The notes beneath the pieces were generated by a model. It saw nothing but the letters and a program-made list of their open reading frames with translations, did no database searches and was not told the origin of the DNA. Below are positions 1-24,286 of a stretch of 64,000 nucleotides of DNA, piece after piece; position 1 is the stretch's first letter; every line of letters begins with the position of its first letter. The stretch lies in NCBI RefSeq assembly GCF_009914755.1, contig NC_060926.1. The stretch is one strand, 5' to 3'. This DNA comes from the human T2T-CHM13v2.0 reference genome, Homo sapiens. A program made the position numbers and the translations under genes.

Positions 1-1745
1 GTATTCACAGGGGGTAAAACTATTTAGATTTGATGCTGAGGTAAGGCAGTGGAAAGAAAGGGGCTTGGGGAACTTAAAAATTCTCAAAAACGAGGTCAAT
101 GGCAAACTAAGAATGCTGATGCGAAGAGAACAAGTACTAAAAGTGTGTGCTAATCATTGGATAACGACTACAATGAACCTGAAGCCCCTCTCTGGATCAG
201 ATAGAGCATGGATGTGGTCAGCCAGTGATTTCTCTGACGGTGATGCCAAACTAGAGCGGTTGGCAGCAAAATTTAAAACACCAGAGCTGGCTGAAGAATT
301 CAAGCAGAAATTTGAGGAATGCCAGCGGCTTCTGTTAGACATACCACTTCAAACTCCCCATAAACTTGTAGATACTGGCAGAGCTGCCAAGTTAATACAG
401 AGAGCTGAAGAAATGAAGAGTGGACTGAAAGATTTCAAAACATTTTTGACAAATGATCAAACAAAAGTCACTGAGGAAGAAAATAAGGGTTCAGGTACAG
501 GTGCGGCCGGTGCCTCAGACACAACAATAAAACCCAATGCTGAAAACACTGGGCCCACATTAGAATGGGATAACTATGACTTAAGGGAAGATGCTTTGGA
601 TGATAGTGTCAGTAGTAGCTCAGTACATGCTTCTCCATTGGCAAGTAGCCCTGTGAGAAAAAATCTTTTCCGCTTTGATGAGTCAACAACAGGATCTAAC
701 TTCAGTTTTAAATCTGCTTTGAGTCTATCTAAGTCTCCTGCCAAGTTGAATCAGAGTGGGACTTCAGTTGGCACTGATGAAGAATCTGTTGTTACTCAAG
801 AAGAAGAGAGAGATGGACAGTACTTTGAACCTGTTGTTCCTTTACCTGATCTAGTTGAAGTATCCAGTGGTGAGGAAAATGAACAAGTTGTTTTTAGTCA
901 CAGGGCAGAAATCTACAGATATGATAAAGATGTTGGTCAATGGAAAGAAAGGGGCATTGGTGATATAAAGATTTTACAGAATTATGATAATAAGCAAGTT
1001 CGTATAGTGATGAGAAGGGACCAAGTATTAAAACTTTGTGCCAATCACAGAATAACTCCAGACATGAGTTTGCAAAATATGAAAGGGACAGAAAGAGTAT
1101 GGGTGTGGACTGCATGTGATTTTGCAGATGGAGAAAGAAAAGTAGAGCATTTAGCTGTTCGTTTTAAACTACAGGATGTTGCAGACTCGTTTAAGAAAAT
1201 TTTTGATGAAGCAAAAACAGCCCAGGAAAAAGATTCTTTGATAACACCTCATGTTTCTCGGTCAAGCACTCCCAGAGAGTCACCATGTGGCAAAATTGCT
1301 GTAGCTGTATTAGAAGAAACCACAAGAGAGAGGACAGATGTTATTCAGGGTGATGATGTAGCAGATGCAGCTTCAGAAGTTGAAGTGTCTAGCACATCTG
1401 AAACAACAACAAAAGCAGTGGTTTCTCCTCCAAAGTTTGTATTTGTTTCAGAGTCTGTTAAAAGAATTTTTAGTAGTGAAAAATCAAAACCATTTGCATT
1501 TGGCAACAGTTCTGCCACTGGGTCTTTGTTTAGATTTAGTTTTAATGCACCTTTGAAAAGTAACAATAGTGAAACTAGTTCAGTAGCCCAGAGTGGATCT
1601 GAAAGCAAAGTGGAACCTAAAAAATGTGAACTGTCAAAGAACTCTGATATCGAACAGTCTTCAGATAGCAAAGTCAAAAATCTCTCTGCTTCCTTTCCAA
1701 CGGAAGAATCTTCAATCAACTACACATTTAAAACACCAGAAAAGG
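1..1745 (+). CDS. RGPD5: RGPD large RANBP2-derived exon (5'-partial): C-terminal part of RanBD2, linker, RanBD3, Ser-rich region
   Basis: Open frame from nt 2 ([29 protein letters not shown]...) with two Ran-binding domain motifs (WKERG...CANH, ~1-335 and ~821-1225). Ends TPEK-G|gtaggt, donor at 1746. Paralog call (RGPD5 vs RGPD6) rests on linkage to LIMS3/4. Confidence 0.93.
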
Positions 1746-2107
1746 GTAGGTACTTTGTTGTTAAAGTTAAGCACAATTTTTCTTTCTTTTAATGTTTAGC
1801 TTGATGCAGACTCTTTGTGGGATACTAATGTTGGGATATAAACGATGCTTTGTGAACACCCCCAAAATATTTGAGCAATTTTTTTTCTCCCTTAATAAGT
1901 TCACGGTGAGGTTTCAAAGAGCAAGAGAACTTAGTTAAAGACATTTCAGTAACTGGAAGATACTTCTATCATGCTAGGGCAGAGCAAAAGAACTTGGTAC
2001 AGTGTACGGACTCATGCTTGAATCATGCGCATTAACGTGAGTCTTTTTTTAAAGTGTTCATTTTCATTTGTTCTGTTTCTTTTGTCACTCAGAAAACATG
2101 ATATTGA

Positions 2108-2428
2108 GGCTGGGCACGGTGGCTCACTCCTAGAATGCCAGCACTTTGGGAGGTTGAGGTGGGCAGATCACTTGAGCTCAGGAGTTCGAGACCAGCCTGG
2201 CCAACATGGTGAAACCCTGTTTCTACTGAAAATACAAAAATGAGCCGGGCATGGTGGTGCGTGCCTATAATTAGCAGCTACTCAGGAGGTTGAGGCAGGA
2301 GGATCGCTTGAGCACAGGAGATGGAGGTAGCAGTGAGCTGAAATCATGCCACTGCACTCCAGCCTGACTGAGTGACTGAGTGAGACTTTGTCTCCAAAAA
2401 AAACAAAAAACAAAAAACAAAAAAAAAC
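2108..2428 (+). mobile_element. Alu, full length
   Basis: ggctgggcacggtggctcac...A-rich tail; TSD aaaacatgatattga on both sides. Confidence 0.92.
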
Positions 2429-2636
2429 ATGATATTGAGATGTTCTCATTTTATGTGTTGTATGTCAGTCTTGCTCATGTATTAAATGAGCAAAGAATGA
2501 AACTACAGGGATAAATGAATATGTAAGACAGTCAGATTGGTGGTATAAATTGAGGGATTCTGGCTTTTTATGTTTTAAAAGCATATTCATTTTGTTTCCT
2601 AAAATGTTAAAAAATGAAATATTCTTTATTTTCTAG

Positions 2637-2714
2637 GATTTAATTTTAGCCTTTTTAAATCTAATCCCATGGCCTTTTGGACTAGCACCCCTTCCTCACA
2701 GCCTGAGAGCAAAG
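2637..2714 (+). CDS. RGPD5: RGPD 78-nt linker exon (GFNFSLFKSNPMAFWTSTPSSQPESK)
   Basis: Acceptor tttattttctag|GA, donor AAAG|gtatag, phase 1-1, open frame joining TPEK to EPPLW. Matches the RGPD protein sequence as I recall it. Confidence 0.88.
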
Positions 2715-3794
2715 GTATAGAACTAGCATTCTCAGTATGAGATAACAGCAGTTTTTAGCAGCTGGGTAGCCCTTAGCAAAGTATTAATTACTGTGGCTGT
2801 ATGAAATGAAGTACTTACCACTACAACATGCATGTTAAAGAATGCCAGTTTAAGCAAAGTACCTTTTGACTGGTGGCATGACACCCTTGTTGGTTTGTTT
2901 TTTAAAATGTAGTGGGATGCTGATTTGTAATGTACTTCATTGCTCTGCTATTTCAGGTCTGCTCAATGAAGACCTATGTTTTATCTAATGTTTATCTTTA
3001 GCCACTAACGTCTGCCAGTATTCACATGTAGTGGCAACGGCATGTATACAGTATGGAAGAGTGTCCCTGTAGGGCTGTTCTTTTGTGCATGGTTTAGAAA
3101 AATGTTGTATTTGAAAATGGACCCCATTTTTAACAGCCAGCATTCTACAGCTTGCATATTATATATGTTGCACAGATCATTTTTAGAAGTGTGGCTACTA
3201 GAGTGGAACAAGAAGTGGGATCTGTTGAAGGCCTTCAAGAACAGGTTAGGGAAGTGAAATCTCACCCTTAGTGACCAGTAACACATCTTAGCCATGCCAA
3301 ACAAGTACAATGATAAAGTAACAATCTCTGATTTTTTTTTAAGTATACCAGTTTTATTACCAGCTAAGGTAGCTCTTAATCTTTTATTTTAAAGATACGG
3401 TCTTTGAGAAATGTGAAAAGTGTTAACTTAAAAGTGGATGTATACTTGCGTACAGTTTCTGTGAGCTCTAGGTTAAGAATCCCTGAGCTAAGAACGAATG
3501 TGCCTATACACTACTGTAGAACATAGAGCCTTATTCTGTTTTGAATCTGATAATGTCATTGTCCCAAGGGACCTTAGAAATGAAGACTTTAGACATGAGT
3601 AAACTGAGGCCAAGAGAGGCTATCTGATTTACCCAAGGGGTCTTTACTGAGTAATAGCAGAAGTGGAACAAGAATCTGTATCTTATGGTGTACTGTTATT
3701 TCTCCTAGCTAGGAAATGATACTAAGTTTTTGTTTATAATGAAGGAGAGGGACAGATTTAACATTGTAAAAGGAAGGGCACTGGTTCTGCAGAG

Positions 3795-4308
3795 CAGTGT
3801 CATCCAATAGAAATAAAATATAACCTGTGTATGTAATTTAAAATTGTCATTTGGTGCAATGGCTTGTGCCTATAATCCCAGTTACTTGGGAGGCTGAGGC
3901 AGAGGGATCACTTGAGCCCACAAGTTCCAGGCTTCAGTGAACTATGATCACATCACTGCACTCCAGCTCTGGGTGACAAAGGTGACAAAGGAAGACCGCA
4001 TCTCAAATAAATACATAAATAAATAAATTTTCTAGTAGCCATATTAAAAAGAATAAAAAGAAACAGTTAAAAAGGGAAACAGATGAAAGTAACTTTATTG
4101 ATAGATTTGATTTAACTCATTATGTCCAAAATATCATTTTAACTTCTAATTAATATAAAAATTAACGATATTTTACATTATTGTTTTTCACCAAGTCTTC
4201 AAAATCCAGTGTGTGTGTTTACACTTACTGTTAGCATGTCTTGATTTGGACTAGCCACCTTGTGAGGTTTTAATAGAATGTGGCTAGGCTACCATATTGG
4301 ACACCATA
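3795..4308. mobile_element. MER33-like hAT-Charlie DNA transposon interrupted by an Alu monomer (~3852-4025)
   Basis: cagtgtcatccaatagaaat ... ggctaccatattggacac termini and internal ttctagtagccatatt / ggactagccac motifs. Confidence 0.7.
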
Positions 4309-5103
4309 GCTCTCAGAATGTTTCCCTGTCACCAGTTGGTATACATGGCATGCTTCATAACTGGCTTACTTTATTAAACTCCTTTAGCCAGAAGTTCTTC
4401 TTTACATTAATAGATCAGAACAGGTTGCATATAGAAGTTTTTTCTGTTTCTAATTTTTTGCCCTTTGCATTGATGGTGGCTGGGGATGGGTTGTTTTCAG
4501 CCATATGAATGGTCTTAGATTTTATAGTGTTAGCTACCCATAGAGTCACAGTTTTTATTTAATTTTATCTAGTATCATGCTTGAACACAGGCAAACTAGA
4601 TGCAACTCTAGTCACCTTCCATTCTTGGCAATTGTTAACTTTCCTTACAGGAACTAATCACAGTTGGCTTTGGATTAGTTTCATATGTATACTAATACTT
4701 GCTTATGTTTTAAGATTTTTTTCAATTGCTGCAAATGCGTGGATATTTTGGTAAACTATTGTATGCTAAGTATAGTTAGGCAACACTTTAAAATTTTTAA
4801 CCTTTTTAAATTCTAGAAATTTTGTAATTCTTTTCAATGACTATTAAGTAAACACAAGATTTTTTTTGTTTTCTTTGGTTTTAAATAGATTCTGTGTTCA
4901 CTTAGGGTTTTTGGTAGAACACTAAATCAGGATGCTAATTCTAATTCATGATTATCGTACATCTCTGCATCGAAGTATATGTGTTTTTTATCAGTATGCT
5001 GTTTTAACCTATAGATAGGTTCCATGGTTTTTATTTTCAGGTAGAGTATTAACGTCAATACTTAATACCTTATCTTTGTCAATTTTTTTGACTGGTGTTA
5101 CAG

Positions 5104-5141
5104 CAAAAGAGAAGAAAAAACCTGAAGATTCTCCCTCAGAT
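5104..5141 (+). pseudogene. Truncated remnant of the next RANBP2 exon ([13 protein letters not shown]), fused to an Alu fragment
   Basis: ttacag|CA AAA GAG AAG AAA AAA CCT GAA GAT TCT CCC TCA GAT continues TPEK in phase 1 as RANBP2 [17 protein letters not shown], then switches abruptly to Alu sequence. Confidence 0.88.
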
Positions 5142-5224
5142 AGTCTCGGTCTCCTGACCTCGTGATCCACCCGCCTCGGCCTCCCAAAGTGCTGGGATTA
5201 CAGGCATGAGCCACTGCGCCTGGC
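5142..5224 (-). mobile_element. Alu fragment (5' ~83 nt of left arm) at the fusion junction
   Basis: gtctcggtctcctgacctcgtgatccacccgcctcggcctcccaaagtgctgggattacaggcatgagccactgcgcctggc; no body, tail or TSD. Confidence 0.93.
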
Positions 5225-5933
5225 TGACACATGTCTTAATTCTGGTATTCACCAGATTTGTTTCGTGTTCTCCGTTGTTAGTCATCAAATTTGTCTACTT
5301 TTTAAATAGAAACATTAGCTAGAGCAAGGAACTTAGAAACACTCAAGCGGCACTGAATGTGTAGAATTGCATAACCAATATAGCTTCTTTGCTTTCACAT
5401 TTACAATTAGTTGGAGTTTTAGTTCAGCCGTACCCAGTATCTTCCATTCTGCTTCCAGGAAGAAATGGAAAAATGTCAGCCATGATGATGCAGTATTTTA
5501 GTAGCAAGTTGATGGTGTTTTGGTTTCCCATGGGAAATATTGTCACTGGAGCATTAGCAGCTATCGGTCACTTATTAGGGTAAAAAAGCAACTTCAGAAG
5601 AATTTAATATATGCCAAAGAATCAACAAAGGAAGTAATCAGCCAGGGCAAAGGTCGCACAAGAGATTGTAATCTAGCAATCAGCAGTGGAATAAGCAGTC
5701 AGCTTACCAGAAACCCAGGAAAATGCTTCAGAAAGGGCAGTCAGGACTAAGGCAATTTAATGAAATGCAAAATAAATGAAATCTGAAGTTTAAATAAAAA
5801 TCTAGATTACAATTCCGGTTTCTAACTCAGTTATGAGACCTTGGGCAAAGTCATTAAATTTCTCTGAACTTCAGATTTTTGGGAGTCAATAAACCAATAC
5901 ATGTCAAAGGGCCTGGTAAACTTTACAGTTTAG

Positions 5934-6229
<296 letters not shown>

Positions 6230-6646
6230 TTACAGTTTATCAGCAAACAGGAAAGTCTTGCTAGGCAATGTAATTGATTAGTTCCGTGCCCTGGATTCTG
6301 GGCTCTTAACTGTATGAGCACTGTAGGTGTGAGCAGCAACAATTAAGAAGCTGCAGAGGTAAAGGTATAAGGGCAGTGATTGAGGATGTCTACCAAGCAG
6401 ATTTCAGCAAGTGTGTTTCAAGAAGTATGCAGCAATCTGAAATACCTAATCCTGAAAAATTGCTAGAATCTAGTCTTTTAATTTTGGCCAGTATTTAGCA
6501 GTAGTTTGGCCCTCTACTCTAAATTAATAAAAAATAAGTAGTACTATATTATGAGCTGTGTTATCTAACGGTTTATCTTAGCTAGTAGCAATTAATTTAT
6601 AGCTGCTATTAAAATGACTAACGTAGTTAAAAGTTTGATGAGTAAG

Positions 6647-6950
6647 TTTTTTTTTGTTGTTTTTTTTTTTTGAGCTGGCGTCTCGCTCTGTCGCCAGGCT
6701 GGAGTGCGGTGGCGTGATCTTGGCTCACTGCAACCTCCGCCTCCTGGTTTCCAGCAATTCTCTGCCTCAGCCTCCCCAGCAGCTGGGATTACAGGCACCT
6801 GCCACCGTGCCTGGCTAATTTTTGCATTTTTAGTAGAGATAGGGTTTCACCATCTTGGCCAGGCTGGTCTTGAACTTGCTGACCTCGTGATCCACCCACC
6901 TTAGCCTCCCAAACTGCTAGGATTACAGATTTGAGCCACCACGCCCGGCC
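6647..6950 (-). mobile_element. Alu (AluS-like)
   Basis: Poly-T then antisense Alu; TSD ttgatga(g/c)taa. Confidence 0.9.
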
Positions 6951-7125
6951 TTGATGACTAAATTTTAAGAAATGTTTTAGCAATTCTTCATACACCTTTC
7001 ACTTATAGTTACTTAATTCCTCTACTCTTATCATTTGATATTTTCATTTTATTGTGTACCTCTGTAAGGCCGAATCAATAGATTTTGAACAATCTCACAC
7101 TTAACCTTTAAAAAAAATCTAATAG

Positions 7126-7320
7126 GCCCAGTTTCCTCTCAACAATCTTTGAAGAACCTTCGAGAAAGGAGAAACACAGACCTCCCGCTTCTAGACATGC
7201 ACACTGTAACCCGGGAAGAGGGAGAAGGCATGGAGACAACTGATACGGAGTCTGTGTCTTCCGCCAGCACATACACACAGTCTTTAGAGCAGCTGCTTAA
7301 CTCTCCCGAAACTAAACTTG
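7126..7320 (+). pseudogene. GCC2-derived exon (GPVSSQQSLKNLRERRNTDLPLLDMHTVTREEGEG...SPETKL), probably skipped in RGPD mRNA
   Basis: 195-nt open phase 1-1 exon matching GCC2/GCC185 just upstream of EPPLW. Acceptor aaaaaatctaatag has almost no pyrimidine tract; donor gtctgt is weak. Confidence 0.75.
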
Positions 7321-7450
7321 GTCTGTTACTCTGTCTAAATATGTTCTTCTTCTTTAATTTCACTGTCTTATTTAATTACTATTACTCTAAGGTACATATG
7401 CTTTTTTGGGCTGCTCCAATAAAATTTCTTTCAATATTCCACTACCTGTT

Positions 7451-7885
7451 TGTATTAGGGTTCTCTAGAGGGACAGAACTAATTGGATGGTTGGATGGAT
7501 GGATGGGATGGATGGATGGATGCTTATTAAGTATTACCTTACACGATCACTAGGCCATCTGCAGACTGAGGAGCAACGAGAGCCAGTCCAAGTTCCAAAA
7601 CTGAAGAACTAGGAGTCTGATGTTCAAGGGCAGGAAGCATCCAGCACAGGAGAAAGATGTAGCTTGGGAGGCTAGGCCAGTCTCGCCTTTTCAGGTTTTT
7701 CTGCCTGCTTTATATTCGCTGGCAGCTGATTAGATGGCACCTACCAGATTAAGGGTGGGTCTGCCTTCCCCAGCCCACTGACTCAAATGTTAATCCCTTT
7801 GGCAACACCCTCACAGACAACACTCAGGATTAATACTCTGCATCCTTTAATCCAATCAAGTTGACACCCAGTATTAACCATCACA
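7451..7885 (-). mobile_element. MLT2A-type (HERV-L) solo LTR with internal (GGAT)n
   Basis: tgtattagggttctctagagggacagaactaa...cagtattaaccatcaca; TG..CA ends; 5-bp TSD ctgtt/ctgtc. Confidence 0.85.
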
Positions 7886-8803
7886 CTGTCCAAATGGAAA
7901 AATTATTAAACAAATCTTTTTTAAAATAAAATGCTAGCTCTTGCCCTAGGCTTGAACCATAAATAAGTGGTGGGAAGTTTATAGTCACAAATAGGTGGTG
8001 GGTATTAGAAAGCAGGATAAACTATCCTCTCACCCTTCCAAGAAACTGACAGTTTCAGTTTATTCCTCTTGATGAAGTAATGCTAAATTTTTGTAGTGAT
8101 GTTTTGGTATATTTTATTACTTGTAATTAATATTACTGTTCAAAATTTAGGGGGAATCTGTCATCCTCCTGAAACTTCAGAATCACCTGGAGTAAGGGTC
8201 ATTTGTATTCATGGTCACTGACCACGTGGGGTAGAAACTGCAAGTCATGGTTCCTTCAGGCAAAGTTAATAGTGGTGACATGGAGGCATCATGATAGAGC
8301 AGCAGACTCCAGAAGCCAATTTGACTTTGTGATTTCTGAAAAAATTACCTGTCAACTGTGAGCCTGTTTCATCATCTGTAAAGTTTGAATAATGATACCT
8401 ACCCTGCCTGATAGAAGATTCTTATGAGGGAACATGATACGTGACCAGTAAATGTTAATGCTTTCCTTATACGTGAAATGACATAAAATCTTGGAATATT
8501 AATAGATGGGAAGAAGATGTGTAATAAAACTGTCTATAAACACAATTCTGACAAATTTCAGAACTGGGATTCATAGGGCTTTATTCAGTTAGATTACATG
8601 CTTTACAACAGAGATACTGTTTTATTTGTGTCACCTACAACATATAATCTGTTGATTGAGGTATGCTGAATAGATGAATGGCAAAGAAAGCAGACCTATA
8701 AAATATCACATAGTAAGATATTTATATTTAGATTTTTCTTATTTAGAATCTTCATCTGTAATGTATGATTTTGAAAATTAATTCTTGGAACAACATCTTG
8801 CAG

Positions 8804-8943
8804 AGCCTCCATTATGGCATGCTGAATTTACCAAAGAAGAATTGGTTCAGAAGCTCCGTTCCACCACAAAAAGTGCAGATCACTTAAACGGCCTGCTTCG
8901 GGAAATAGAGGCAACCAATGCAGTCCTTATGGAGCAAATTAAG
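8804..8943 (+). CDS. RGPD5: RGPD GCC2-derived coiled-coil exon (EPPLWHAEFTKEELVQKL...LMEQIK)
   Basis: ttgcag|AG CCT CCA ... ATT AAG|gtgaga; 140 nt, phase 1 to 0. Confidence 0.93.
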
Positions 8944-9050
8944 GTGAGATCAGAAAACCTGGCCACCGTGAAAACCGCCAGTTTGGTTTTCTGGACCCTC
9001 CATACACATGCACCCAAGTTTAAAAATTCACATTGCAGATGCATCTATAA

Positions 9051-9397
<347 letters not shown>

Positions 9398-10157
9398 AAA
9401 ATACTTCTTTTACACCTATTACATAAAGATTATTTGTTAATTCCTACTTTTCCTGAGAAACCGTAATAGATTTAGAAACTAGAGAGATGTTCACAAATCA
9501 TTGTTCACATATGCTTAAATAAAAAATGGGTGTGAGTCTTTGAATTCTAAAGATAACCAGTGAATTTAAATTATTCAACTGATATTTATAGTACTGAACT
9601 ACTAAACAGTTTCCAGGTGGAGATGGCAAAGTGGCATGGGAAGTTTTTCCTGTTTAAAGTAGACACCAGAAACATCTAGGAATGTTGCAGAACAGTTGAG
9701 GATTACTCAAATGAGGTTTTTCCACCCTGGCTCACTGATAAATCACCCCTCAGAATATAGTCATACTGCTTGTTGAGGAGTTCTTATGACCCAGGCCCTG
9801 GGCTTTACATACATTATTTAATCTCATCACTGGTTGAGAGAAAAATTGAAGCTGGTAAATGGTGGAACAAAATTCAAACTCATAGCTGTCTGAAAAGTAC
9901 ATGCTTTTCCCCTGTACTTTGCTGCTCCTAATAGATCTGTCCTGCCACTGTGCAAGGCCACTAGCTATCCTTGTCAGATTATTTTAAAGCCGAATTCAGT
10001 TATTTTCAGTAAATTGTATATATCATGACATTCCACCATTAAATACTTCAGTATGCATCTCTATAAAATAACATTTTCCCACTAATAAAAACATTATCAT
10101 AGCTAACAAATCACTAACTAGCCCAGTAAACCTAAATGACTTATTTAAATGTTATAT

Positions 10158-10556
<399 letters not shown>

Positions 10557-11150
10557 TAACTTTCTTGCCTAACCTAAAATGAAAATATACTAAAAGCTAT
10601 GGCTTGGTTTCAACCTGGAAATCTTCCTCAAAGACTTGAACATGATATTACCTTTTTTATATTGTTCTTTGCCTCATTTCTCTGATAGTGTTTTACATTG
10701 TCTTATATTCCTGAATTTTCACTGTGTCTGAACTTTTGTTTTGATTAAGTGCCGTTCACTGTGGACGTCTTAACTGCCTGGGACTTTAGGAACAGGGTAG
10801 GGGCAGGGGGTTAGTGGAGGCTGCCGATGTTCCCCTCAGCCCATTTTCAGAGCCCCATGCCATACTGGCTTAGTTTCTATCGAAAGTAGAAGGCAGAGGG
10901 AACATCTTGGTACCAACCCATGGCTCCAGTTAGTTGCTCCTCATGGAGACGTTCCATCAGTTCCCCAGCTTTCAACTCCATTTCCATGATACCCTGTGCT
11001 TCTGAGACAAGAACCCCAGTATTTACACAGGATGCATCCTCTCCTCTTGTCAGTGATACTTGGTAAGCTGCTGGACTGACTCATTTCCACCTCTTCATCT
11101 GTTTCTCGTGAGAATTTCTTGATGTGTCTCATCTACTTTTTCTCCTCTTG

Positions 11151-11389
11151 TATTAGCTTGTTGCTTTTCTACTTCGCCCCTCTTCCTTCCAACCCCAAAT
11201 AGCTTAGGACAATGGAGTCCTATAGCCCAACACTTGTTTCATATGCAGCAATCCACTTTCTAGGCAAATGCAGCTTTGAAACTATCTCATAGTTGGAGTT
11301 CCGGTTTTCATGTCAAATGGATTTTATACGGTGATGTCATAAACTCCTTTGAAATGCTTCACATGCAGCTGCTGTAGTTAACTGAATTC
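11151..11389 (+). repeat. Copy 1 of a ~240-bp diverged local direct repeat
   Basis: tattagcttgttgcttttctacttc...tagttaactgaattc recurs at 12052-12596. Confidence 0.9.
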
Positions 11390-11518
11390 CTTCCTTTATT
11401 GCCATATGGAGGGAAGGGGGAAATTTGGGGGGAAGAGAAGAAAAATACATGAGTTCAGTCTGCCATATTTAATCAGAAGCTCCTAAAGCCCATTTTTAAC
11501 TCATTTCTCTAACACCAG

Positions 11519-11720
11519 CTTCTCAAAAGTGAAATAAGAAGATTGGAAAGGAATCAAGAGCGAGAGAAGTCTGCAGCTAACCTGGAATACTTGAAGAACG
11601 TCTTGCTGCAGTTCATTTTCTTGAAACCAGGTAGTGAAAGAGAGAGACTTCTTCCTGTTATAAATACGATGTTGCAGCTCAGCCCTGAAGAAAAGGGAAA
11701 ACTTGCTGCGGTTGCTCAAG
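11519..11720 (+). CDS. RGPD5: RGPD GRIP-domain exon (LLKSEIRRLERNQEREKSAANLEYLKNVLLQFIF...LAAVAQ)
   Basis: caccag|CTT CTC ... CAA G|gtgggt; 202 nt. Contains the GRIP signature EYLKNVLLQF...LLPVINTMLQLSPEE. Confidence 0.95.
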
Positions 11721-12051
11721 GTGGGTAAAAGGAGAGTCTCAGAACTTCTGACTTCTAACTTAAACTAAACAGCCTGGTGGTTGAGAAGTTGTCTGTATGT
11801 GTAACTTTTCAATTTTGCTCATTTGAATTGGGTCTGTCATATGAGTAGGCCGTGACTAGATTTGAAAAGCTGACTTTTTAACATCTTGAGGCAACTGTAG
11901 TACATTTATATAATTTTAACGTTCAGCAAAATACAATAAGTGCTTAGCTTGATCTTCTAGCTCTTTGAAAATTGGATTTTTATCCTGGTGTTGAGTTCTG
12001 GTGTTCAGCTGAACGTGGTTTTGTTTTAAATTCTACTTTTTAAAAAACATT

Positions 12052-12596
12052 TATTAGCTTGTTCCTTTTCTACTTCACGCCTCTTCCTTCCTCCAACCCC
12101 AAATAGCCTAAGACAATGGAGCCATAGAGCCCAACACTTGGTCTATATACAGCAGTCCACTTTCTAGGCAAATGCAGTTTTAAAACTGTGCCATAGGCCA
12201 GGCGCCGGTGGTTCACGCCTATAATCCCACCACTTTGGGAGGCCGAGGCAGGCGGATCACAAGATCAAGATACCGAGACCATCCTGGCCAACATGGTGAA
12301 ATCTCGTCTCTACTAAAAATACAAAAATTAGCTGGACGTGGTGGCATGCGCCTGTAGTCCCAGCTACTCAGGAGGCTGAGGCAGCAGAGTCGCTTGAACT
12401 CACGAGGCGGAGGTTGCAGTGATGTGTCACGCCACTGTACTCCAGCCTGATGGCAGAGCGAGACTCCATCTCAAAAAAAAAAACAAAAAACTATGATGTA
12501 GTTAGAGTTGGTTTCCATGTCAGATGGATTTAATACTGTGATGTCATTAACTTCTTTGAAATGCTTCATATACAACTGCTATAGTTAACTGAATTC
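12052..12596 (+). repeat. Copy 2 of the local direct repeat, split by an Alu (12196-12490, +)
   Basis: Colinear with 11151-11389 on both sides of the Alu; degenerate TSD aaaactgtgccata/aaaactatgatgta. Confidence 0.9.
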
Positions 12597-12934
12597 AAGC
12601 TGCATCTTAAGAATTATGGTTTCGTTTTTGTTTTAGTTTTAAATTACTTTTATTTTTGACATTTACAAGCACAAGGAAGACGCTATAATCTCTCTTGAGT
12701 TGTCACCCATCTCTAACAGTTTTCAACTCATGGACAATCTTTTGGCGTAACTAGGGGAGAGTTAGAGACTTAAATCCCACACATCATTTCTTTCCCCAGT
12801 GAATAATTCAATGTTTATTGGATTTCTCTGTCACCTATACCTAGTTTATGTTCATTTTGCCTGTGTTATTGTGAATGTCTTTTTATAGTATCCTAAATAG
12901 GGCTCATATATTGCATTTGGTTGATATTCCTTAA

Positions 12935-13237
<303 letters not shown>

Positions 13238-13584
13238 ATTTTGTTGTTTTTTTATCTATAACAATTATATATATAAGTATATTTTTAATGTGCCACTTAT
13301 TAATTGAAGAAAGTGGTCATTTATGCTATAGCAGTTCTATATTTGGGTTTTAATCATTACAGGGTAACACTGAGCTTGTTCCAATTGCCTATAAATAGGA
13401 AGATCCAGGTGCAATTGGGTGGGATGGTGGACAAAAATACATCATAGATGGTATTGTGTGCTTTCTAAGACATGAGGAGGCCCAGAATGTCCAGACAACT
13501 TACTTTTGACTGATTGACCTTATCTAGTTGGTGTTCTTTAACATGTTCCCCATCCCCTGTAAACCCTAATAACTAAACTGATAA

Positions 13585-13742
13585 GAGTCATCCTCAAAAT
13601 TGAGCAGGCATCTGAATCATCTGGTATACTTACTAAAATTCCAATTGCTGGTCCCCAATTTCTGACCCAAGATTCTGCATTTTTAGCAATTTGTTGCTGA
13701 TGCTTCTGGTCTGGGGCCCATACCTTGAGAACCCCCGGTCTA
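13585..13742. mobile_element. MER5A-like DNA transposon
   Basis: catcctcaaa...gcatctgaatcatctgg...ctgcatttttagcaa...ccataccttgagaacc. Confidence 0.6.
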
Positions 13743-14608
13743 GAGGCCTGATAAGATTCAGGCTTAATTTTTTTTACAGACATACTTCATAAGTAGTATT
13801 GATAGTTTCTTTGAATCTGGTTTTTAATAATCTTTCTAATGATGAAGGAGGAATGTTCTCAATACTGACAGTAATCTCAGTTCTTCAAACTATAGGATAG
13901 GTTTCTATAGCCACAATAGTATTTTTGTCACAAGGGCCCAAATAAGAATACATCATGTATATTTTTAATACTTATTCAAATTACAAATTCACTGTCTTTA
14001 ATTTATTCTAACAAAAGTAAACCTAATTTTATAGTTATAAAAAAGAAGAAATCTACTTCTAGTCACCTAAGAGTAAAACTGCCCTTATAAAAAACAAGAC
14101 AGAAATCTCAAAATTATAACTAATTTTATAGTTATAAAATTAACCAGGACTTTAAGAACGTTTGCATTTTAAAATTAAAGTTTTCAATAGTTTTCAATAC
14201 AACAATGATACTATCTCAAAATACTCAGCATGTCTAACAGGCCTCTTTTAAAAGCTCAGCATGTTTAATGTAGGTGTTGCTAACGTCCAGGTGGCTCCTA
14301 TAAGTTAAGGGTCCATTGATTTAGAAGTTCTAAAAGAGACTAACCTAAGGGATACCAATAACAGATATTTTTAAAGAATTTCATAGAGGAGATACACATT
14401 AGAAACCCAGAACTCTAAGATGTGCATTTGCTAAGTCCTGTAAACAGACAAGAAAACACATTTACATTAGTTTGCCCTTTAAAGATTATTTCCTACTTGT
14501 CTCTTATCAATGTGAGTACATAAAAGAGACCTTATTACAATTAAAAACAATGATGGTTTAGCAGCAGATTTAGATACCTTACATTCTCTCTTTAAGAGAG
14601 AGAATGTA

Positions 14609-15470
<862 letters not shown>

Positions 15471-15809
15471 CCACCATATTACAGATATGGACTGTCAGTC
15501 TGACTGGTCACACTAGGGGCATTTTGTTACCAAGGCCTTGAAAATAATAACCAACACTGCATACATGAGGGATGCCAGAAGAAAGGTCTGAGAGCCACTC
15601 TTCCTGGCACTGAAGGAAACAGGGCCCATCAGAGCAAACAAGTACCTTTTGCCTCTCTCATCTCCTTGGAGGCAAATGTTTATAATCTCTGGTTTTGTGT
15701 AAAGTTTATAACAGTATTTTTCATTCAGGTTGCTACCTATTAGTGGATGGTGAAATTAATTTGGTGGATCACATTCAGGATATTTTTTTTTTAAATCAAA
15801 AGAATACAA

Positions 15810-16112
15810 GCTGGGCTCAATGACTCACACCTGTAAGCCCAACAGTTTGGGAAGACCAGGCAGGAGGATTGCTTGAGAACAGGAGTTCAGAATCAGCCTG
15901 GGCAACATGGCGAGACCCTATGTCTACAAAAATTTTAAAATATGCCAGATCTGGTGGCATGTGCCCATAGTCCTAGCTACTCGGGAGGCTAAGGCAGCAG
16001 GATTGTTTGTTAGAAGGAGTTCGAGGCTGCAGTCAAACTTCTGGTCGAAATCCTGGTCACGCCACTGCATTTCAGCCTGGGCAACAGAGTAAAACCCCAT
16101 CTTTAAAAAAAT
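15810..16112 (+). mobile_element. Alu (AluJ-like, diverged)
   Basis: Dimeric Alu structure. Confidence 0.8.
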
Positions 16113-17349
16113 ATTAAGAAATAAAAATAATATGTGAAACGTTAGAATATGTTGAATCTGGTAAGGATAAGCAATTATTTCTTGAAACTCTACATACATA
16201 CATGAGTGTTGGTAAATACCTGACTGTATCATCAGCTCTAGATATAAAATGTTTATGATGTTGGCTGTGAGTTAATGAGGAATAGTTTTCCTTTCTGTGG
16301 GTTTGGGTGTATTTGGGAAACATTAGCTTAGGGGGGTAAAGTAGGTTACCCAACTCCGAAAAGCAGCATCAAAATCTTTATAATAAACACATATTAGGGG
16401 CCCAACTTAAATTTCAAGCAGATGTCATGAGCTGCTCAGAGTAGCGTGTTACAACTCTGCGTTATAAGGTAAAATGACTTAGAGTGTAGCAGTAGTCCCC
16501 AATGTCAAATAGACAGTGGTAAGTATAGATTGCTCTTCTCCTTGCATCACAAATGTTAATTCACCCTGCCCCCACACGCATTAAAACTCAGCATATTTCA
16601 CAAATTGAGTGTTTCATTTCTATTTGAGATAGACTTATGGTAAGTCAGCTTTGCTCCCCAAATAAGTTAGCCATATAGTACTTCTATATGCAAAATTTGA
16701 ATCTCAATTTTACTACTCAAGCTGGAAGTAAAAGTCATTTTTGTATATCTTCTTTGCTCCCAGACTGGGTTACAGTTTACAGATCTGAATATTGTCACTT
16801 GTACACCATACATACACAGAGGTCTAAAACTCTCTACAAGTAAATAAAGAAAAAAAGCCCAGCAACCCAATAGGAAAATAGGCCAAGCCTGTTATAGGCT
16901 TTTTGATCATCTCCAGACTGGCAGGAAGAGAATGCATACTCACACTGTAAGTGCCTGATTTGATTTGCAGAGGATATAGAACCTTATCAGAAAACAGCCT
17001 TCCAAGGCAAGAGCAAATGCACCCTATCTAAGCACAGCTTTTCTCCAATTCTTATTTACCTAAGGAGATGAATAGCTGCCAGGAACATTGTTTGCACAAG
17101 GGCAGGAGCCTGCCAGATCTGAGAACACAGCAAAATTTTTATTTTGTCAAAAATCTTATATTCAGCTTACACCATTCATTTCAGGTGAACATACAACAGT
17201 CTGCATTTCAGTTTAGGGAAATGTTTACAGTCGTCTGGTTCTCTTTATTCTTGGGAACAAGGTTACCTCACTTGGAACACATAACCAGTGCCAAGTTGTC
17301 CATCCCTAAGCAATATCGCTTCCTCCTACTTTCTAGAAGTTCTTCAGGT

Positions 17350-17840
17350 TGTGGAAGACAGACTTTTCAGAATTGTTTGCCCTCATTCCCTCCTCCAGAA
17401 ATGCATGCCTTTGTATAATCTCTTCCCCTTGAGAGCCAGTAGGCTAACCTAATGAGTTATGTTTAACCAGTAGAATACAGCAAGAATGATAGATTACAAG
17501 AGATTGTGGCTTCTATCTTGCTAGCGGCCTCTCTCTGTCTTCTCTGCTTGCACACTTTGTTGAAGCAAGCTACCATCCCAGAGGCAAGGAACACAGGCCA
17601 TCAGTTTAGCAGCCTTGAGGAACTAAATTCTTCCAACTACCACATAAGTTTGGAAGTAGATTCTTCTCCAGTCCAGCCTTCAGATGAGACCCCAGCCATG
17701 CCAACATCTTGATTGCAGCCCTGTGAGAGACCTTGAAATAGAACCATTTCTGATCTCCTGACCCACAGAAACTGTGAAATAAATATGTGTTAAGGTACTA
17801 AGTTTGTAGTAATTTGTTACGCAGCAGATTGTAAATAACA
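17350..17840 (+). mobile_element. MLT1-type MaLR LTR
   Basis: ccagtccagccttcagatgaga...cctgacccacagaaactgtgaaataaat...taatttgttacgcagca. Confidence 0.75.
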
Positions 17841-18019
17841 CGCAGATAAAACCAGACAGAACAGAAAAATAAAATGACTTTAACTCTAGAAAGTTTCCCC
17901 ATGTAAAATTTTGAAAATGCTACTCTGCCTAAGGTCAAACTGTCATACATATATACGTATGAAAACACAGAAAGGTGTCTGGAAGGGTAATACCAAATTA
18001 AATCTTTATCCAAGAGGAA

Positions 18020-18600
18020 TGAAAACCAGTATTCACACAAAAACCTATGCACAAACCTTGTGAATATATTAAAAACCAGTGAATTATGCACTTTAAAAAG
18101 GTGAATTATGTGGTATATGAATTATATCTCCAAAACATTTAATTAAAAACCTGTACACAATTATTCATAGAAACTTTCTTTAAAATTGCTAAAAACGAGG
18201 AAGATCTCAGTTATCCTTCAACTGGCAAATGAATAAACAAACTGGTACAGCCGTGCAATTGAATACTGCTCAGCAATAAAAAAGAATGCACTGCCAGTTC
18301 AGCAACATGGGTAATTCTCAAATGCATTATGCCAGTTGACAGAGGTCAGACTCAAAATACTATGTACAGTGTGATTCTACTTATATGACACTGAAAAAAG
18401 CAGAACTATAAGGACAGAAAACAGGTTAGCGGTTGCCAAGGAGTGGGAGAAGCAGCCAGGGAGAACTTTGAGGAGATGAAAATGTGCCAGGCCTTGGTCG
18501 GTGGTGGTACGTAACTGTGCATTTGTCAAGACTCAGTGCTATATGCTGAAAAGGGCAGGTTTTACTATAAGTAAGTTGTACCTCAATAAACATGATTTTT
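18020..18600 (+). mobile_element. L1M 3'-end fragments
   Basis: aacctgtacacaa...tgaataaacaaactggtac...gttgccaaggagtgg...cctcaataaa. Confidence 0.7.
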
Positions 18601-19015
18601 AAATGATTAAAACTTTGGTTTTTGTTTGTTGTGGTTCAGTTTTAAGGTTTCCCATAAATCTATTGGTTTTAGATTCTAAGTTGTATATAAGCTTCTGTTT
18701 TAAAAGAATTTTTTTTTTAAATCCTCTTATCGTCAACAATATTTAGTTGTGCTGGAAATTTTATTTTGGAATTGTTTAATAGAGAAAGACAATAAATAAT
18801 GTTCAAGAACAGACATTGATTCATAACATCAAAGTATATTGTGAGAAGATGGTATTTCAGAATAGAGGAAGAATTTCTTATGTGCTGGTAAGATTGTAGA
18901 TAATCATTTCTGCATAATTTTCATAGCTGGATTGCTTTAATAAAGCCATTTAAAGGTTAAGTTCTAGATTGCTTCATGTTGCTTATCAATGTTTTAAAGC
19001 TAAAATAGAAAATTA

Positions 19016-19412
<397 letters not shown>

Positions 19413-19559
19413 CCCCCCCCCCCACCAAAAAAGGCATGTGATCAGTAAAAAAGACATTATTTGCTTATATTGTAGAGTGGTTCTAAAATATAGATTTTAC
19501 ATTGAGAAATTTTAATACTCTCTTTTTTCTTTTTTTTTTCTTTGTTTTACTTTCTAAAG

Positions 19560-19594
19560 ATGAGGAAGAAAATGCTTCCCGTTCTTCTGGATGA
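19560..19594 (+). CDS. RGPD5: RGPD terminal coding exon (DEEENASRSSG*)
   Basis: Long polypyrimidine tract, then ctaaag|AT GAG GAA GAA AAT GCT TCC CGT TCT TCT GGA TGA, in phase with the GRIP exon. Confidence 0.93.
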
Positions 19595-20016
19595 GCATCC
19601 TATCTTCGTAGTTGGTTTGGACTTCGATAGGTTGATGGAAGGAATACTTCTATTAACTAAATAGAATCTGTTTACAAAAATGGTTCGTGTGTGTTACCAT
19701 TATTCTTTTGTCAAAAAGTGTGTATATATGTTTGCATTTACATATATTTGTACATCTGTATGACAGATGTATTTTAAAAGTTTCAACTTGAAGTAAAAGT
19801 ACAACAGCTTGAAGTGTTGATACCAGGCCACAGCCCTCTAACTCATGTGATCTCCCATGCATGCTGCCAGAATAAAACCACCAGGAATGAATTCACTCCC
19901 CACTTCTCTGGAACCTCAGGACCCGCCCATTTCTCGGCAGTACTGTGAATTTTGAAGTTAAACTAAATTTTGGTACCATACCAACTGGAATTTAGGCTTT
20001 AAAAATAATGTTTCAA

Positions 20017-20170
20017 GGCCAGGTGTGGTGATTCATGCCTGAAATCCCACTACTTGGGGAGGCTGCGGCTGGAGAATTGCTTGAGGCTAGTGAGCTGTGA
20101 TTGTACCACTGCACTCCAGCTCGGGGAACAGAGCGAGACCTTGTCTCTAAAAATAATAATAGTAATAAAA
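20017..20170 (+). mobile_element. Alu monomer (FLAM-like) inside the 3'UTR
   Basis: ggccaggtgtggtgattcatgcctg...gaccttgtctctaaaaataataat. Confidence 0.8.
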
Positions 20171-21364
20171 ATAACGTTTTATGACTATTTATTGCAAGGT
20201 CAGATTTACAGATTGTTACAAATTGTTGAGAAATTTTTGTGATTAGAATATGAAGGAAAAAGCTTTGTTGGTAAAAGTGACATGTTAAGGGGCTATGAAG
20301 TAAATATGCTGCAGTTAATTGTGCTAAGTTAAAATACAGTTTAGTTATTTGCTTTAAAATAAACTCTTCTTTTTTTCTTTAAAGTATACTACCTCAAAAC
20401 TCATTATGTTGTCAGAGCCCTAGAGCTGGCTAGTGTAACACTGACTATGAGTAGGTGGGCCCACCACTTGAGTTGAGGTGATTTCATGGTGTCTTTCCAG
20501 GCTCTTGATAGGGTGTCACTGCATGCAAGCCATGAATCTGTTTTGAGAATCCTCTCCATTTTCCCAAATAAAAACCTATCCCAACAGTGACTATATCACT
20601 CAGCATTGGATCTAAATATAAAAGTGGTGCTTTCAGTGTTTTTGGCAGATAGTGTTCCATAACCTTTCCATCAGAAGGGATTTTAGACACCTTAGAGGTC
20701 CGTGCTACATCTTCACAGTTCCTCCGAATAACCTTAGGTGGTAGTGTTACTTGCCTTTGACACCTGTGCATATGTTTTAATGACTAGATCCAAACTGTGT
20801 TGTTCTTAAATCAAAAATTGGATAATTTTTAATATTTATGTATTAATCACACAGTGTGCTCTCTGAAGTTCTCTTAAGCCTTCAGTTTATACTCTTAATT
20901 TTCTTTCTGAGCTGGGGAACTGACTTTGCACTTTGGTTACACAGAACATTGGTTTCCAATTTAGTTTAACTGAAATTTGCTGCTGATATGTTGAGTTTGT
21001 TCTTTAAAAAATACCTCATATATCTCGTCTTTCCTCCTTAGAAGAACAGACCTAACTAGCGAATGTATGAATGAAAATGCATCTATTTCAGAGCCGACAT
21101 GAAGAGTTTAGTTTTTTTACTTTATAAACTGTGAATATGAGTATGCCAGCTGCATTAGATGTAACTAATCATATTTAAATATATTTCACTTTGACTTTAG
21201 ACCTTTTGAAGTCTGTATAAACTTGTTTTGAAATACAGTCTCCACTTACGAATGTCATAACAAAATACTTTTTTGCATGATAAAAAATTACTTTGATTAC
21301 AAAAGGCATATTCTTTCATGGTTTCTGCAATGAGAGGAAGTGTAGTGATTATTTTAATATTTCT

Positions 21365-21370
21365 ATTAAA
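21365..21370 (+). terminator. Candidate distal polyadenylation signal ATTAAA
   Basis: ATTAAA followed within ~30-60 nt by ctcttttatgtt...tgtctctttggggttgtt. Confidence 0.55.
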
Positions 21371-21711
21371 ACTGTATATTTTTATGGCTGCTCTTTTATG
21401 TTACCCACTGTCTCTTTGGGGTTGTTAATTGGTTTCTGAAAGGGAACTTCAAACTCCTTTACTACTGGCCTTCCATGGTTGGTCCCTATTAGGTTTTTGT
21501 GAGAACGTCGACCAACTCTTTGATACCCGCCAGGTAGACCGTAGTACCTGCCATGTCTGACACCCTGCATCCAAGCTAAAACCAGAAACAGCGCTGGGCC
21601 TCCCTGTGGACAAGACATTGATTTGACCAGAAGCAGATGTCTGGCTAAGGCTGCCAACCAAAGGGTGGCCTTAGATGAAGGGCTTTGTTCAGTTAGGGGC
21701 AGAGGTCATTA

Positions 21712-21940
21712 ATTTTTTTTTTTTTTTTTGAGACAGAGTCTTGCTCTGTCGCCCAGGCGTGAGTACAATGGCGCGATCTCGGCTCACTGCAAGCTCTGCC
21801 TCCCAGGTTCACGCCATTCTCCTGCCTCAGCCTCCTAAGTAGCTGGGACTACAGGCGCCCGCCACCATGCCCGGCTAATTTTTTGTATTTTTAGTAGAGA
21901 CAGGGTTTCACCGTGTTAGCCTGGATGGTCTCGATCTCCT
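21712..21940 (-). mobile_element. 5'-truncated AluY
   Basis: Ends at gatctcctg; flanked by degenerate TSD gaggtcattaatt/gaggtaatttatt. Confidence 0.85.
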
Positions 21941-22152
21941 GGAGGTAATTTATTTCTTTGGATGTTTGGACTAGGAGATGGGGAGAGGCAGAGCAGAAAG
22001 AGAAACACAGATGCCACAAGGAGGAGGAACAGAGCTAACCCTGGATAGGACTGGACACAGCAGCCAGACCAAGAGAGGCATCTAGTGAGAAGCAGCTCTT
22101 CAGCCCTGGGCCTGGTGCACACATCACTCCTTGGTTTCTAAGAACCAAATTT

Positions 22153-24286
<2,134 letters not shown>

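What the first reader, a model, noticed from the sequence alone, without database searches (positions are those of the whole stretch)
5104..5224. Base-resolution RANBP2/GCC2 fusion junction: RANBP2 exon cut and joined to an Alu fragment
Seen: a RANBP2 coding exon runs 38 nt ([13 protein letters not shown]) and switches at ...ctcaGAT|agtctcggtctcctgacc into the middle of an antisense Alu with no tail or TSD. The Alu consensus there reads ...caggatggtctcg, so GAT is a short microhomology. All recognisable exons upstream are RANBP2-type and all downstream are GCC2-type. Established: in RANBP2 the next residues (DDVLIV...) begin the IR1-M-IR2 SUMO E3 ligase region, which RGPDs lack. Inference: this is the founding RGPD breakpoint, made by non-homologous or microhomology joining rather than Alu-Alu recombination.
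Basis: partly seen in the sequence, partly recalled or inferred. Interest (0 to 1): 0.72.

Follow-up and report, generated by a model that had tools for sequence, protein, structure and literature searches.

The report
RANBP2–GCC2 fusion joint of RGPD5

Summary
Against the window's own genome, identity to the RANBP2 locus ends at window 5141 and identity to the GCC2 locus begins at 5139. The two overlap by three bases, GAT.

- **RANBP2 side:** the break cuts a coding exon after residue D2629. This is where the crystallised IR1-M SUMO-E3 constructs begin.
- **GCC2 side:** the break lies 204 bases inside a 288-base full-length antisense Alu in a GCC2 intron.
- **No Alu-Alu exchange:** the nearest RANBP2 Alu is more than 1.1 kb from the break.
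- **One shared joint:** the 17-base junction word occurs exactly seven times in the genome, once in each RGPD copy on chromosome 2.
- **No reciprocal product:** parental sequence just beyond either breakpoint is single copy.
- **One age:** both sides differ from their parents by about 2.0-2.5%.

GCC2 lies 278 kb upstream of RANBP2 on the same strand, so the joint is head-to-tail, the duplication type. A 3-base microhomology arises by chance in 6.4% of random joints, so the joining pathway cannot be named.

RGPD as a RANBP2-GCC2 fusion is in print. Ape genomes could not be searched.

The parts
1..1745 (+). 3' part of the large RANBP2-derived coding exon of RGPD5 (exon 20 of 23 in the hub table). 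It is open in frame 2 and its donor is in phase 1.
   Evidence: no stops in frame 1 (0-based) and one base left over at 1745; two RanBP1 domains, PF00638, E 1.1e-103.
1746..5103 (+). RANBP2-derived intron sequence, forming the 5' part of the hybrid RGPD5 intron 1746-8803.
   Evidence: window 4000-5141 aligns to C2:109231224-109232345 at 95.7%; the 5 kb left of the joint aligns to RANBP2 with K2P 0.0185-0.0221.
5104..5141 (+). 38-nt remnant of the next RANBP2 coding exon (exon 21 by inference). The acceptor is kept and the donor is lost. It encodes (A)[12 protein letters not shown], ending at RanBP2 residue D2629.
   Evidence: residues 2618-2673 of the 3224-aa chain 7r5j.
5139..5141 (+). GAT: the 3-nt microhomology shared by both parents at the joint. 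There are no inserted bases.
   Evidence: Chance P(>=3 nt) = 0.064.
5139..5224 (-). Antisense Alu fragment (the 5' 86 nt of the element). It was inherited from a full-length Alu in a GCC2 intron. It has no A-tail and keeps only one copy of the flanking direct repeat.
   Evidence: positions 203-288 of the 288-nt GCC2 Alu, 97.7%.
5225..8803 (+). GCC2-derived intron sequence, forming the 3' part of the hybrid intron.
   Evidence: window 5139-9013 = C2:108953975-108957853, 97.3%.
8804..8943 (+). First GCC2-derived coding exon. Its acceptor is in phase 1, so it is in frame with the donor at 1745. It encodes the Rab-binding domain.
   Evidence: open joined frame; PF16704, E 1.3e-25; 3bbp_D, GCC2, E 3.7e-24.
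11519..11720 (+). GCC2-derived exon encoding the end of the Rab-binding domain and the GRIP domain.
   Evidence: PF01465 GRIP, E 2.7e-19.
19560..21403 (+). Last RGPD5 exon (GCC2-derived). The stop codon ends at 19594.
   Evidence: Hub gene table; the joined frame ends in a stop; colinear with the GCC2 locus.
5139..34677 (+). 29.5-kb block colinear with the parental GCC2 3' region and the sequence beyond it (C2:108953975-108983481). It ends at the edge of an antisense Alu.
   Evidence: (K2P 0.0215-0.030 throughout).

Best explanation
Window 5139-5141 is the single RANBP2|GCC2 joint that defines the RGPD genes.

How the joint formed. A break inside a RANBP2 coding exon (after the codon for D2629) was joined to a break inside an antisense Alu in a GCC2 intron. 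That Alu lies about 278.4 kb upstream on the same strand. In the parental locus the order is GCC2, then the LIMS1 region, then RANBP2. A RANBP2-to-GCC2 joint in the same orientation is therefore head-to-tail, the signature of a duplication rather than a deletion. The joining was non-homologous: unique exon to Alu, 3 nt of shared sequence, no filler.

Consequence. The RANBP2 reading frame loses everything from IR1-M-IR2 (the SUMO E3 region) onward. The 38-nt exon remnant has no splice donor. The phase-1 donor of the preceding exon (1745) is therefore spliced to the next phase-1 acceptor, the GCC2 exon at 8804. This gives an in-frame RanBP1-domain / Rab-binding / GRIP chimera.

Shown: the joint, its parents, its presence in all seven copies, the frame compatibility and the domains.

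Inferred: that this was the founding event, that it was one step, and which repair pathway made it (end joining or replicative template switching). Also inferred is that the first copy arose next to its source and that only dispersed descendants survive.
For: Joint and parents: (RANBP2 identity to 5141, GCC2 from 5139, GAT overlap). Both parental loci are on the + strand, at C2:109232345 and C2:108953975.

GCC2 Alu: it is whole in the parent, and no Alu lies at the RANBP2 break.

Sharing: 7 of 7 copies have an identical joint in a 300-nt alignment. The 17-nt junction word has exactly 7 perfect matches in the 3.1-Gb genome, all at those copies.

No reciprocal product: the 1,379 nt of RANBP2 just 3' of the break, and 3,497 nt of GCC2 ending 204 nt 5' of the break (at the left edge of the Alu), each match only themselves.

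One age: K2P to the parent is 0.0185-0.0221 on the left (7 copies) and 0.0230-0.0257 on the right (7 copies). It stays at 0.0215-0.030 along 29.5 kb.

Colinearity: window 5139-34677 follows the parental order.

Frame and domains.

Literature (passages read): RGPD is described as formed by duplication and juxtaposition of RANBP2 and GCC2, absent from macaque, marmoset and owl monkey (bioRxiv 10.1101/2023.03.07.531415). RGPDs are described as lacking the E3 SUMO ligase domain (PMC12882164).
Against: - No RGPD copy lies between GCC2 and RANBP2 today. The seven joints are at 86.99, 87.79, 106.88, 108.34, 110.30, 110.95 and 112.81 Mb. An in-place tandem duplicate is therefore not observed.
- Two probes inside the 278-kb interval are single copy: C2:109007076-109009886 and C2:109080354-109085092. 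No extant copy carries the whole interval.
- The LIMS1-derived blocks further down the window have different ages, K2P 0.0148-0.0216 and 0.004-0.008. The flank is a mosaic, not one clean unit.
- The 3-nt microhomology is not beyond chance (P = 0.064).
- A divergence of 2.0-2.5% looks low for an origin before the gibbon split. By my recollection human-orangutan divergence is about 3%. Either sequence exchange with the parents or a younger origin of the human copies is needed to explain this.
- Ape genomes were not available.
Confidence: 0.8

Rival explanations
1. Two-step origin. An earlier, larger duplication or duplicative transposition first placed a whole RANBP2 copy upstream of a whole GCC2 copy. 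A later deletion running from the RANBP2 exon to the GCC2 Alu then made the present joint. On this reading the GAT joint is a deletion scar, not the duplication joint.
For: The end product would be identical to what is seen. As I recall it, the published account (Ciccarelli et al. 2005) invokes several rearrangements; that paper is not held. The flank of RGPD5 is demonstrably a mosaic with later rearrangements, including an Alu-Alu chimeric joint at about 57.9-58.0 kb.
Against: It needs an extra event and an extra joint, and no trace of either remains. The sequences that would have been deleted (RANBP2 3' of the break, GCC2 5' of the Alu) are single copy in this genome. Divergence is the same on both sides of the joint.
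Confidence: 0.15
2. The joint was made by replicative template switching (FoSTeS/MMBIR) and not by ligation of two broken ends. A nascent strand ending in ...TCAGAT left the RANBP2 template, annealed to GAT in the GCC2 Alu 278 kb behind, and copied on. This could have happened while a dispersed copy was being synthesised, so no tandem stage ever existed.
For: The joint is head-to-tail with short microhomology and no filler. No tandem copy exists at the source. Extant copies carry only parts of the 278-kb interval.
Against: 3 nt is within the chance range. No templated insertions or second switch are seen within 5 kb of the joint in 7 of 7 copies. The sequence alone cannot separate this from end joining.
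Confidence: 0.3
3. Alu-Alu recombination (unequal homologous exchange between two Alus) made the fusion.
For: The GCC2 breakpoint is inside an Alu. Other joints in this window are Alu-based: the chimeric Alu at about 57.9-58.0 kb and the block edge at 34677.
Against: The RANBP2 breakpoint is in unique coding sequence. The nearest Alu-like sequence in RANBP2 is 1,110 nt upstream in the opposite orientation, or 1,389 nt downstream. The Alu at the joint is a clean truncation, not a chimera.
Confidence: 0.02
4. The joint is an assembly or alignment artefact.
For: The region is a high-identity segmental duplication, where assemblies can err.
Against: Seven separate loci carry the same joint with copy-specific substitutions around it. 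The annotated RGPD5 coding frame runs across the hybrid intron and is open.
Confidence: 0.01

Closest known systems
[quoted passage not shown]
   Same: The window holds the 3' end of RGPD5 (hub table). The RANBP2-derived exon has RanBP1 domains, and the GCC2-derived exons have the Rab-binding and GRIP domains. The IR1-M-IR2 region is missing. The literature passages read describe exactly this fusion.
   Different: Nothing differs in kind. I could not check whether the primary paper already gives these.
Chimeric genes made at the joint of a tandem (head-to-tail) duplication that begins in one gene and ends in its neighbour
   Same: A distal gene's 5' part is joined to a proximal gene's 3' part in the same orientation. 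Both parents stay intact, and there is no reciprocal product.
   Different: The duplicate is not next to its source today. All seven copies are dispersed over 86.99-112.81 Mb, and none keeps the whole 278-kb interval.
Segmental-duplication boundaries that fall in Alu elements (the Alu enrichment at duplication junctions reported by Bailey, Liu and Eichler 2003; recalled, not read here)
   Same: One breakpoint lies in an Alu. The distal edge of the same block (34677) also lies at an Alu edge.
   Different: The partner breakpoint is a unique exon, so the Alu acted at most as a fragile or accessible site, not as a homology partner.
Alu-Alu mediated rearrangement, as at window 57,876-58,032
   Same: Both kinds of joint occur in the same duplication block.
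   Different: At 57.9-58.0 kb both parental sites are Alus and the product is a chimeric Alu with about 157 nt of shared sequence. At 5139-5141 only 3 nt are shared.

Membership tests
RGPD gene family (RANBP2-GCC2 fusion) | 5' part derived from RANBP2, with RanBP1 (Ran-binding) domains | tested here: met
   (PF00638, two stretches, E 1.1e-103). (the 5 kb left of the joint aligns to the RANBP2 locus).
RGPD gene family (RANBP2-GCC2 fusion) | 3' exons derived from GCC2, with a GRIP domain | tested here: met
   (PF16704, PF01465). (3bbp_D, GCC2). (colinear with C2:108953975-108983481).
RGPD gene family (RANBP2-GCC2 fusion) | Lacks the RANBP2 C-terminal part (IR1-M-IR2 SUMO E3 region and beyond) | tested here: met
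   The break falls after D2629. The IR1-M crystal constructs 1z5s_D and 3uin_D start within 2 residues of it. RANBP2 sequence 3' of the break is single copy.
RGPD gene family (RANBP2-GCC2 fusion) | Open reading frame continuous across the fusion | tested here: met
   the annotated coding parts in the window join into 707 codons with a single terminal stop.
RGPD gene family (RANBP2-GCC2 fusion) | Present in apes only, with the same joint in every ape copy | not testable with these tools
   No primate genomes are held. Passages of bioRxiv 10.1101/2023.03.07.531415 state absence from macaque, marmoset and owl monkey and formation in the ancestral ape lineage. The joint itself is not mentioned in the passages read.
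Alu-Alu recombination junction | Both parental breakpoints inside Alus of the same orientation, with a chimeric Alu at the joint | tested here: not met
   the RANBP2 breakpoint is in a unique exon, and the nearest Alu is 1.1-1.4 kb away.
Microhomology-mediated joint (MMEJ or MMBIR/FoSTeS) | Microhomology at the joint beyond what chance gives | tested here: inconclusive
   3 nt observed. 6.4% of 200,000 random joints between the two 10-kb parental stretches have 3 nt or more.
Microhomology-mediated joint (MMEJ or MMBIR/FoSTeS) | Templated insertions or several switches near the joint (for the replicative form) | tested here: not met
   There are no filler bases. The flanks are colinear for 5 kb on both sides in 7 of 7 copies.
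Tandem-duplication joint | Distal parental sequence joined to proximal parental sequence in the same orientation | tested here: met
   C2:109232345 (+) is joined to C2:108953975 (+).
Tandem-duplication joint | Duplicate lies beside its source and carries the whole interval | tested here: not met
   (no joint between 108.95 and 109.23 Mb). (two interval probes are single copy).

The most novel reading that the evidence does not exclude
The RGPD founder was made in one step from a circularised or head-to-tail copy of the 278-kb GCC2-intron-to-RANBP2-exon interval, and its only new joint is this GAT. On this reading the dispersed RGPD blocks are opened-up, later eroded circular permutations of that interval, and the fusion itself needed none of the inversions and translocations of the published scenario.

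Hints: the family's flanks approach each other in parental coordinates. The downstream flank of the 110.30 and 110.95 Mb copies reaches at least C2:109139784. The upstream flank of the 86.99 Mb copy starts at or before C2:109177948.

Against: two interior probes are single copy, and the LIMS1-derived blocks differ in age.
Probability: 0.08. Interest if true: 0.55.

Novelty: already known. Interest (0 to 1): 0.28.

Why it matters
The joint fixes three things.

- **What the RGPD proteins lost.** Everything from the first residue of the SUMO E3 region onward is gone.
- **Why the GCC2 tail is in frame.** Both introns are phase 1, and the orphan exon has no donor.
- **What kind of mutation made a positively selected ape gene family.** It was a non-homologous, duplication-type joint and not an Alu-Alu exchange.

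The 17-base junction word is a perfect, copy-independent marker for RGPD genes. It could be used to count and date copies in ape assemblies and to keep RGPD reads out of RANBP2 diagnostics.

The fusion is textbook for this locus. The value here is confirmation and detail, not discovery.

Tried and rejected
- **Whole 10-kb tile as a probe.** Searching with a full LIMS1-region tile returned only Alu matches and not even the tile's own place, so it is uninformative. Later probes were restricted to stretches that were low-copy in a local screen.
- **Probe C2:109172687-109173564.** This turned out to be a dispersed repeat with copies of about 70-93% identity on many chromosomes. No RGPD-linked copy appeared, so the family's upstream edge probably lies between there and 109177948. 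This is a weak negative.
- **Test for a whole-interval duplicate.** Both interior probes were single copy, so there is no support for any extant copy carrying the full 278 kb.
- **Outer edges in parental coordinates (circular-permutation test).** Not completed.
- **Microhomology as evidence for a specific pathway.** Rejected as not significant.
- **Literature.**
  - Ciccarelli et al. 2005 (DOI and PMC551560), the Cell version of Mao et al. (PMC10947866) and Desgraupes et al. 2023 are not held.
  - Six full-text searches of the held library were answered (less the malformed), with RGPD/RANBP2/GCC2 terms plus duplication, breakpoint, fusion, chimeric gene or microhomology. In the passages I read they found no paper that gives the joint at base level.
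  - bioRxiv supplements are closed. Supplementary Figures 41-44 of the Mao preprint could bear on the joint.
- **Alu subfamily assignment.** By recalled diagnostic positions the GCC2 Alu looks AluY/Sc-like. I did not test this and do not rely on it.

Full report
**What is at the coordinates**

Window 5104-5141 is 38 nt preceded by a splice acceptor (ttacag). It is in frame with the upstream coding exon and reads (A)[12 protein letters not shown]. At 5142 the sequence runs into the right-hand part of an antisense Alu that ends at 5224.

I searched window 4000-7500 against the window's own 3.1-Gb genome. This gave:
- seven full-length matches on contig 2 (the window itself plus six others, 98-100% identity);
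- a match of query 1-1142 only, at C2:109231224-109232345 (96%);
- a match of query 1140-3501 only, at C2:108953975-108956339 (97%).

After fetching both places, local blastn repeated these limits. An ungapped three-way display showed the following:
- The first parent is identical to the window for the 90 bases up to 5141, then reads GATGATGTTCTCATTGTA.
- The second parent is unrelated up to ...CCAGGAT and matches from GAT|AGTCTCG onward.
- The two parents share exactly GAT at the joint, the bases either side differ, and no bases are inserted.

**Identity of the parents**

The exon at the first parent encodes residues 2618-2673 of the 3224-residue human RanBP2 chain 7r5j (E 5.7e-38). The break falls after D2629. 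The crystallised SUMO-E3 pieces 3uin_D and 1z5s_D begin within two residues of that point. A second, weaker match within chain 9b62_E shows the IR1/IR2 internal repeat.

The hub table places the start of RANBP2 at C2:109180084, which fits this parent.

The first coding exon downstream of the joint (8806-8943) matches PDB 3bbp_D, human GCC2, over 46 residues (E 3.7e-24). Pfam finds Rab_bind there, GRIP in 11519-11719, and two RanBP1 domains in window 2-1744.

**The Alu**

In the GCC2 intron the element is whole. It covers 288 nt (L010 4797-5084), is antisense, has a T8 run on its left and is flanked by GACATGTC / GACACATGTC. The window keeps only its positions 203-288, at 5139-5224 (97.7% identity).

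In RANBP2 the nearest Alu-like sequence is 1,110 nt upstream of the break in the opposite orientation, or 1,389 nt downstream in the same orientation. The joint is therefore unique exon to Alu, not Alu to Alu.

**Sharing among copies**

A 300-nt alignment of the seven copies shows the same joint in 7 of 7, with a few copy-specific substitutions nearby. The 17-nt word across the joint has exactly seven perfect matches in the genome, all at those copies. One further match with one mismatch lies on contig 23. The reversed control word gave 2+2 matches at up to one mismatch.

The 1,379 nt of RANBP2 just past the break match only themselves, and so do 3,497 nt of GCC2 ending at the left edge of the Alu, 204 nt before the break. 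No copy extends beyond the joint on either side, and no reciprocal GCC2-5'/RANBP2-3' product exists in this genome.

**Age**

| Comparison | K2P | Differences / sites |
|---|---|---|
| 5 kb left of the joint, seven copies vs RANBP2 | 0.0185-0.0221 | 91-108 in 4,949-4,980 |
| 5 kb right of the joint, seven copies vs GCC2 | 0.0230-0.0257 | 110-122 in 4,830-4,853 |
| Colinear 29.5 kb of the window, by chunk | 0.0215-0.030 | - |

Both sides thus have about the same age, as expected for one event.

By my recollection human-orangutan divergence is about 3%. The value seen here therefore looks low for an origin before the gibbon split, which is what the literature passage implies ('ancestral ape lineage', 'less than 15 mya'). 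I leave this as an open tension. Sequence exchange with the parents or a younger common origin of the human copies could explain it.

**Geometry and mechanism**

Both parents lie on the + strand, with GCC2 278.4 kb upstream of RANBP2. A RANBP2-to-GCC2 joint in the same orientation cannot come from a deletion within the parental arrangement. It is the head-to-tail joint expected from duplicating the interval between the two breakpoints. Such a duplication leaves both parental genes intact and creates one chimera.

Downstream of the joint the window follows the parental order for 29.5 kb (5139-34677 = C2:108953975-108983481). LIMS1-region pieces then follow in the same order: 52082-58032 = 109056501-109062414, and 57876-64000 = 109111159-109117295. 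A further LIMS1-region probe (109135352-109139784) has copies 18 kb beyond the window and at the 110.87 Mb block.

Several results limit this picture:
- No copy of the joint lies between GCC2 and RANBP2 today.
- Two probes from the parts of the interval missing in the window are single copy.
- The LIMS1-derived blocks differ in age, K2P 0.0148-0.0216 against 0.004-0.008.
- Window 34678-52081 has no counterpart in the 200 kb of parental sequence that I held.

The flank is therefore a mosaic. An in-place tandem stage remains an inference.

Three bases of microhomology occur in 6.4% of 200,000 random joints between the two parental 10-kb stretches. Classical end joining, microhomology-mediated end joining and replicative template switching all remain possible.

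**Consequence for the gene**

The upstream exon ends at 1745 in phase 1. The GCC2 exon at 8804 begins in phase 1, and the annotated coding parts in the window join into an open frame of 707 codons ending in the GRIP domain.

The 38-nt remnant kept its acceptor but lost its donor. If it is used, the frame reads ...[24 protein letters not shown] and stops at 5163-5165, seven codons into the Alu. The hub table lists a predicted transcript with a terminal exon at 5104-5989, which would give such a GRIP-less product.

**Comparison with what is known**

RGPD as a RANBP2-GCC2 fusion and core duplicon of ape chromosome 2 is established. All of the following were seen as passages only:
- bioRxiv 10.1101/2023.03.07.531415;
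- PMC12882164;
- PMC13639854;
- PMC10690583;
- PMC6920530.

None of these passages gives the joint at base level. The primary paper (Ciccarelli et al. 2005) is not held. From memory its abstract speaks of duplications, inversions, translocations, exon loss and domain accretion. I could not check whether it shows this joint.

**Verdict**

The feature is real, and it is already known in kind. The added detail is the exact joint, the truncated Alu, the head-to-tail logic, the frame compatibility and a genome-unique 17-nt marker. That detail is useful but not surprising.

Noticed in passing
window 57,876-58,032: Chimeric Alu joining two LIMS1-region blocks that lie 48.7 kb apart in the parental locus (C2:109062414 and C2:109111159). 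Both parental sites are Alus and the switch lies inside the shared Alu sequence. It contrasts with the non-homologous joint at 5139-5141.
   Followed up: partly
window 57,876-64,000 (includes the first LIMS3 exon at 62,332-62,554): This block differs from LIMS1 by only K2P 0.004-0.008, against 0.02-0.03 for the rest of the duplicated sequence in the window. It is therefore either a much younger acquisition or a recent conversion from LIMS1. The age step coincides with the chimeric Alu.
   Followed up: partly
window 34,678-52,081: This stretch has no counterpart in the 200 kb of the GCC2-LIMS1 parental region that I held. A probe (42,600-47,200) occurs only in the blocks at 110.34, 110.91 and 112.87 Mb. 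A 0.9-kb piece at 92% lies on contig 10 (82.16 Mb), and part of the probe matches a dispersed repeat on many chromosomes. It is a different duplicon or an insertion of unknown source.
   Followed up: partly
window 34,577-34,680: The distal end of the GCC2-derived block falls at the edge of an antisense Alu. It lies just beyond the RefSeq recombination and non-allelic-recombination features at 33,439-34,411.
   Followed up: no
window 5,104-5,165 (and the hub's predicted exon 5,104-5,989): If the orphan RANBP2 exon is spliced in, the frame continues seven codons into the Alu (SLGLLTS) and stops at 5,163-5,165. This predicts an RGPD isoform without the GCC2 tail.
   Followed up: partly
C2:86946228-86947505 (+) and C2:87972983-87974259 (-), outside the window: The 1.3 kb lying 2.1 to 0.8 kb upstream of the RANBP2 start has copies only at these two places (96%). 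It does not appear near the other five RGPD copies, so the copies differ in their upstream edge. The second place is 182 kb from the nearest junction copy (87.79 Mb), which is too far for one gene.
   Followed up: no
window 1-34,677 against the parental loci: Divergence is a uniform 2.0-3.0% on both sides of the joint. By recalled species divergences this is lower than expected if the fusion predates the gibbon split, as the literature passage implies. It is unexplained.
   Followed up: partly
L009 5,002-5,010 (RANBP2 locus, just 3' of the break): The RANBP2 breakpoint lies in the first unit of a (GAT)3 run encoding DDD. The RGPD copies keep one GAT.
   Followed up: no
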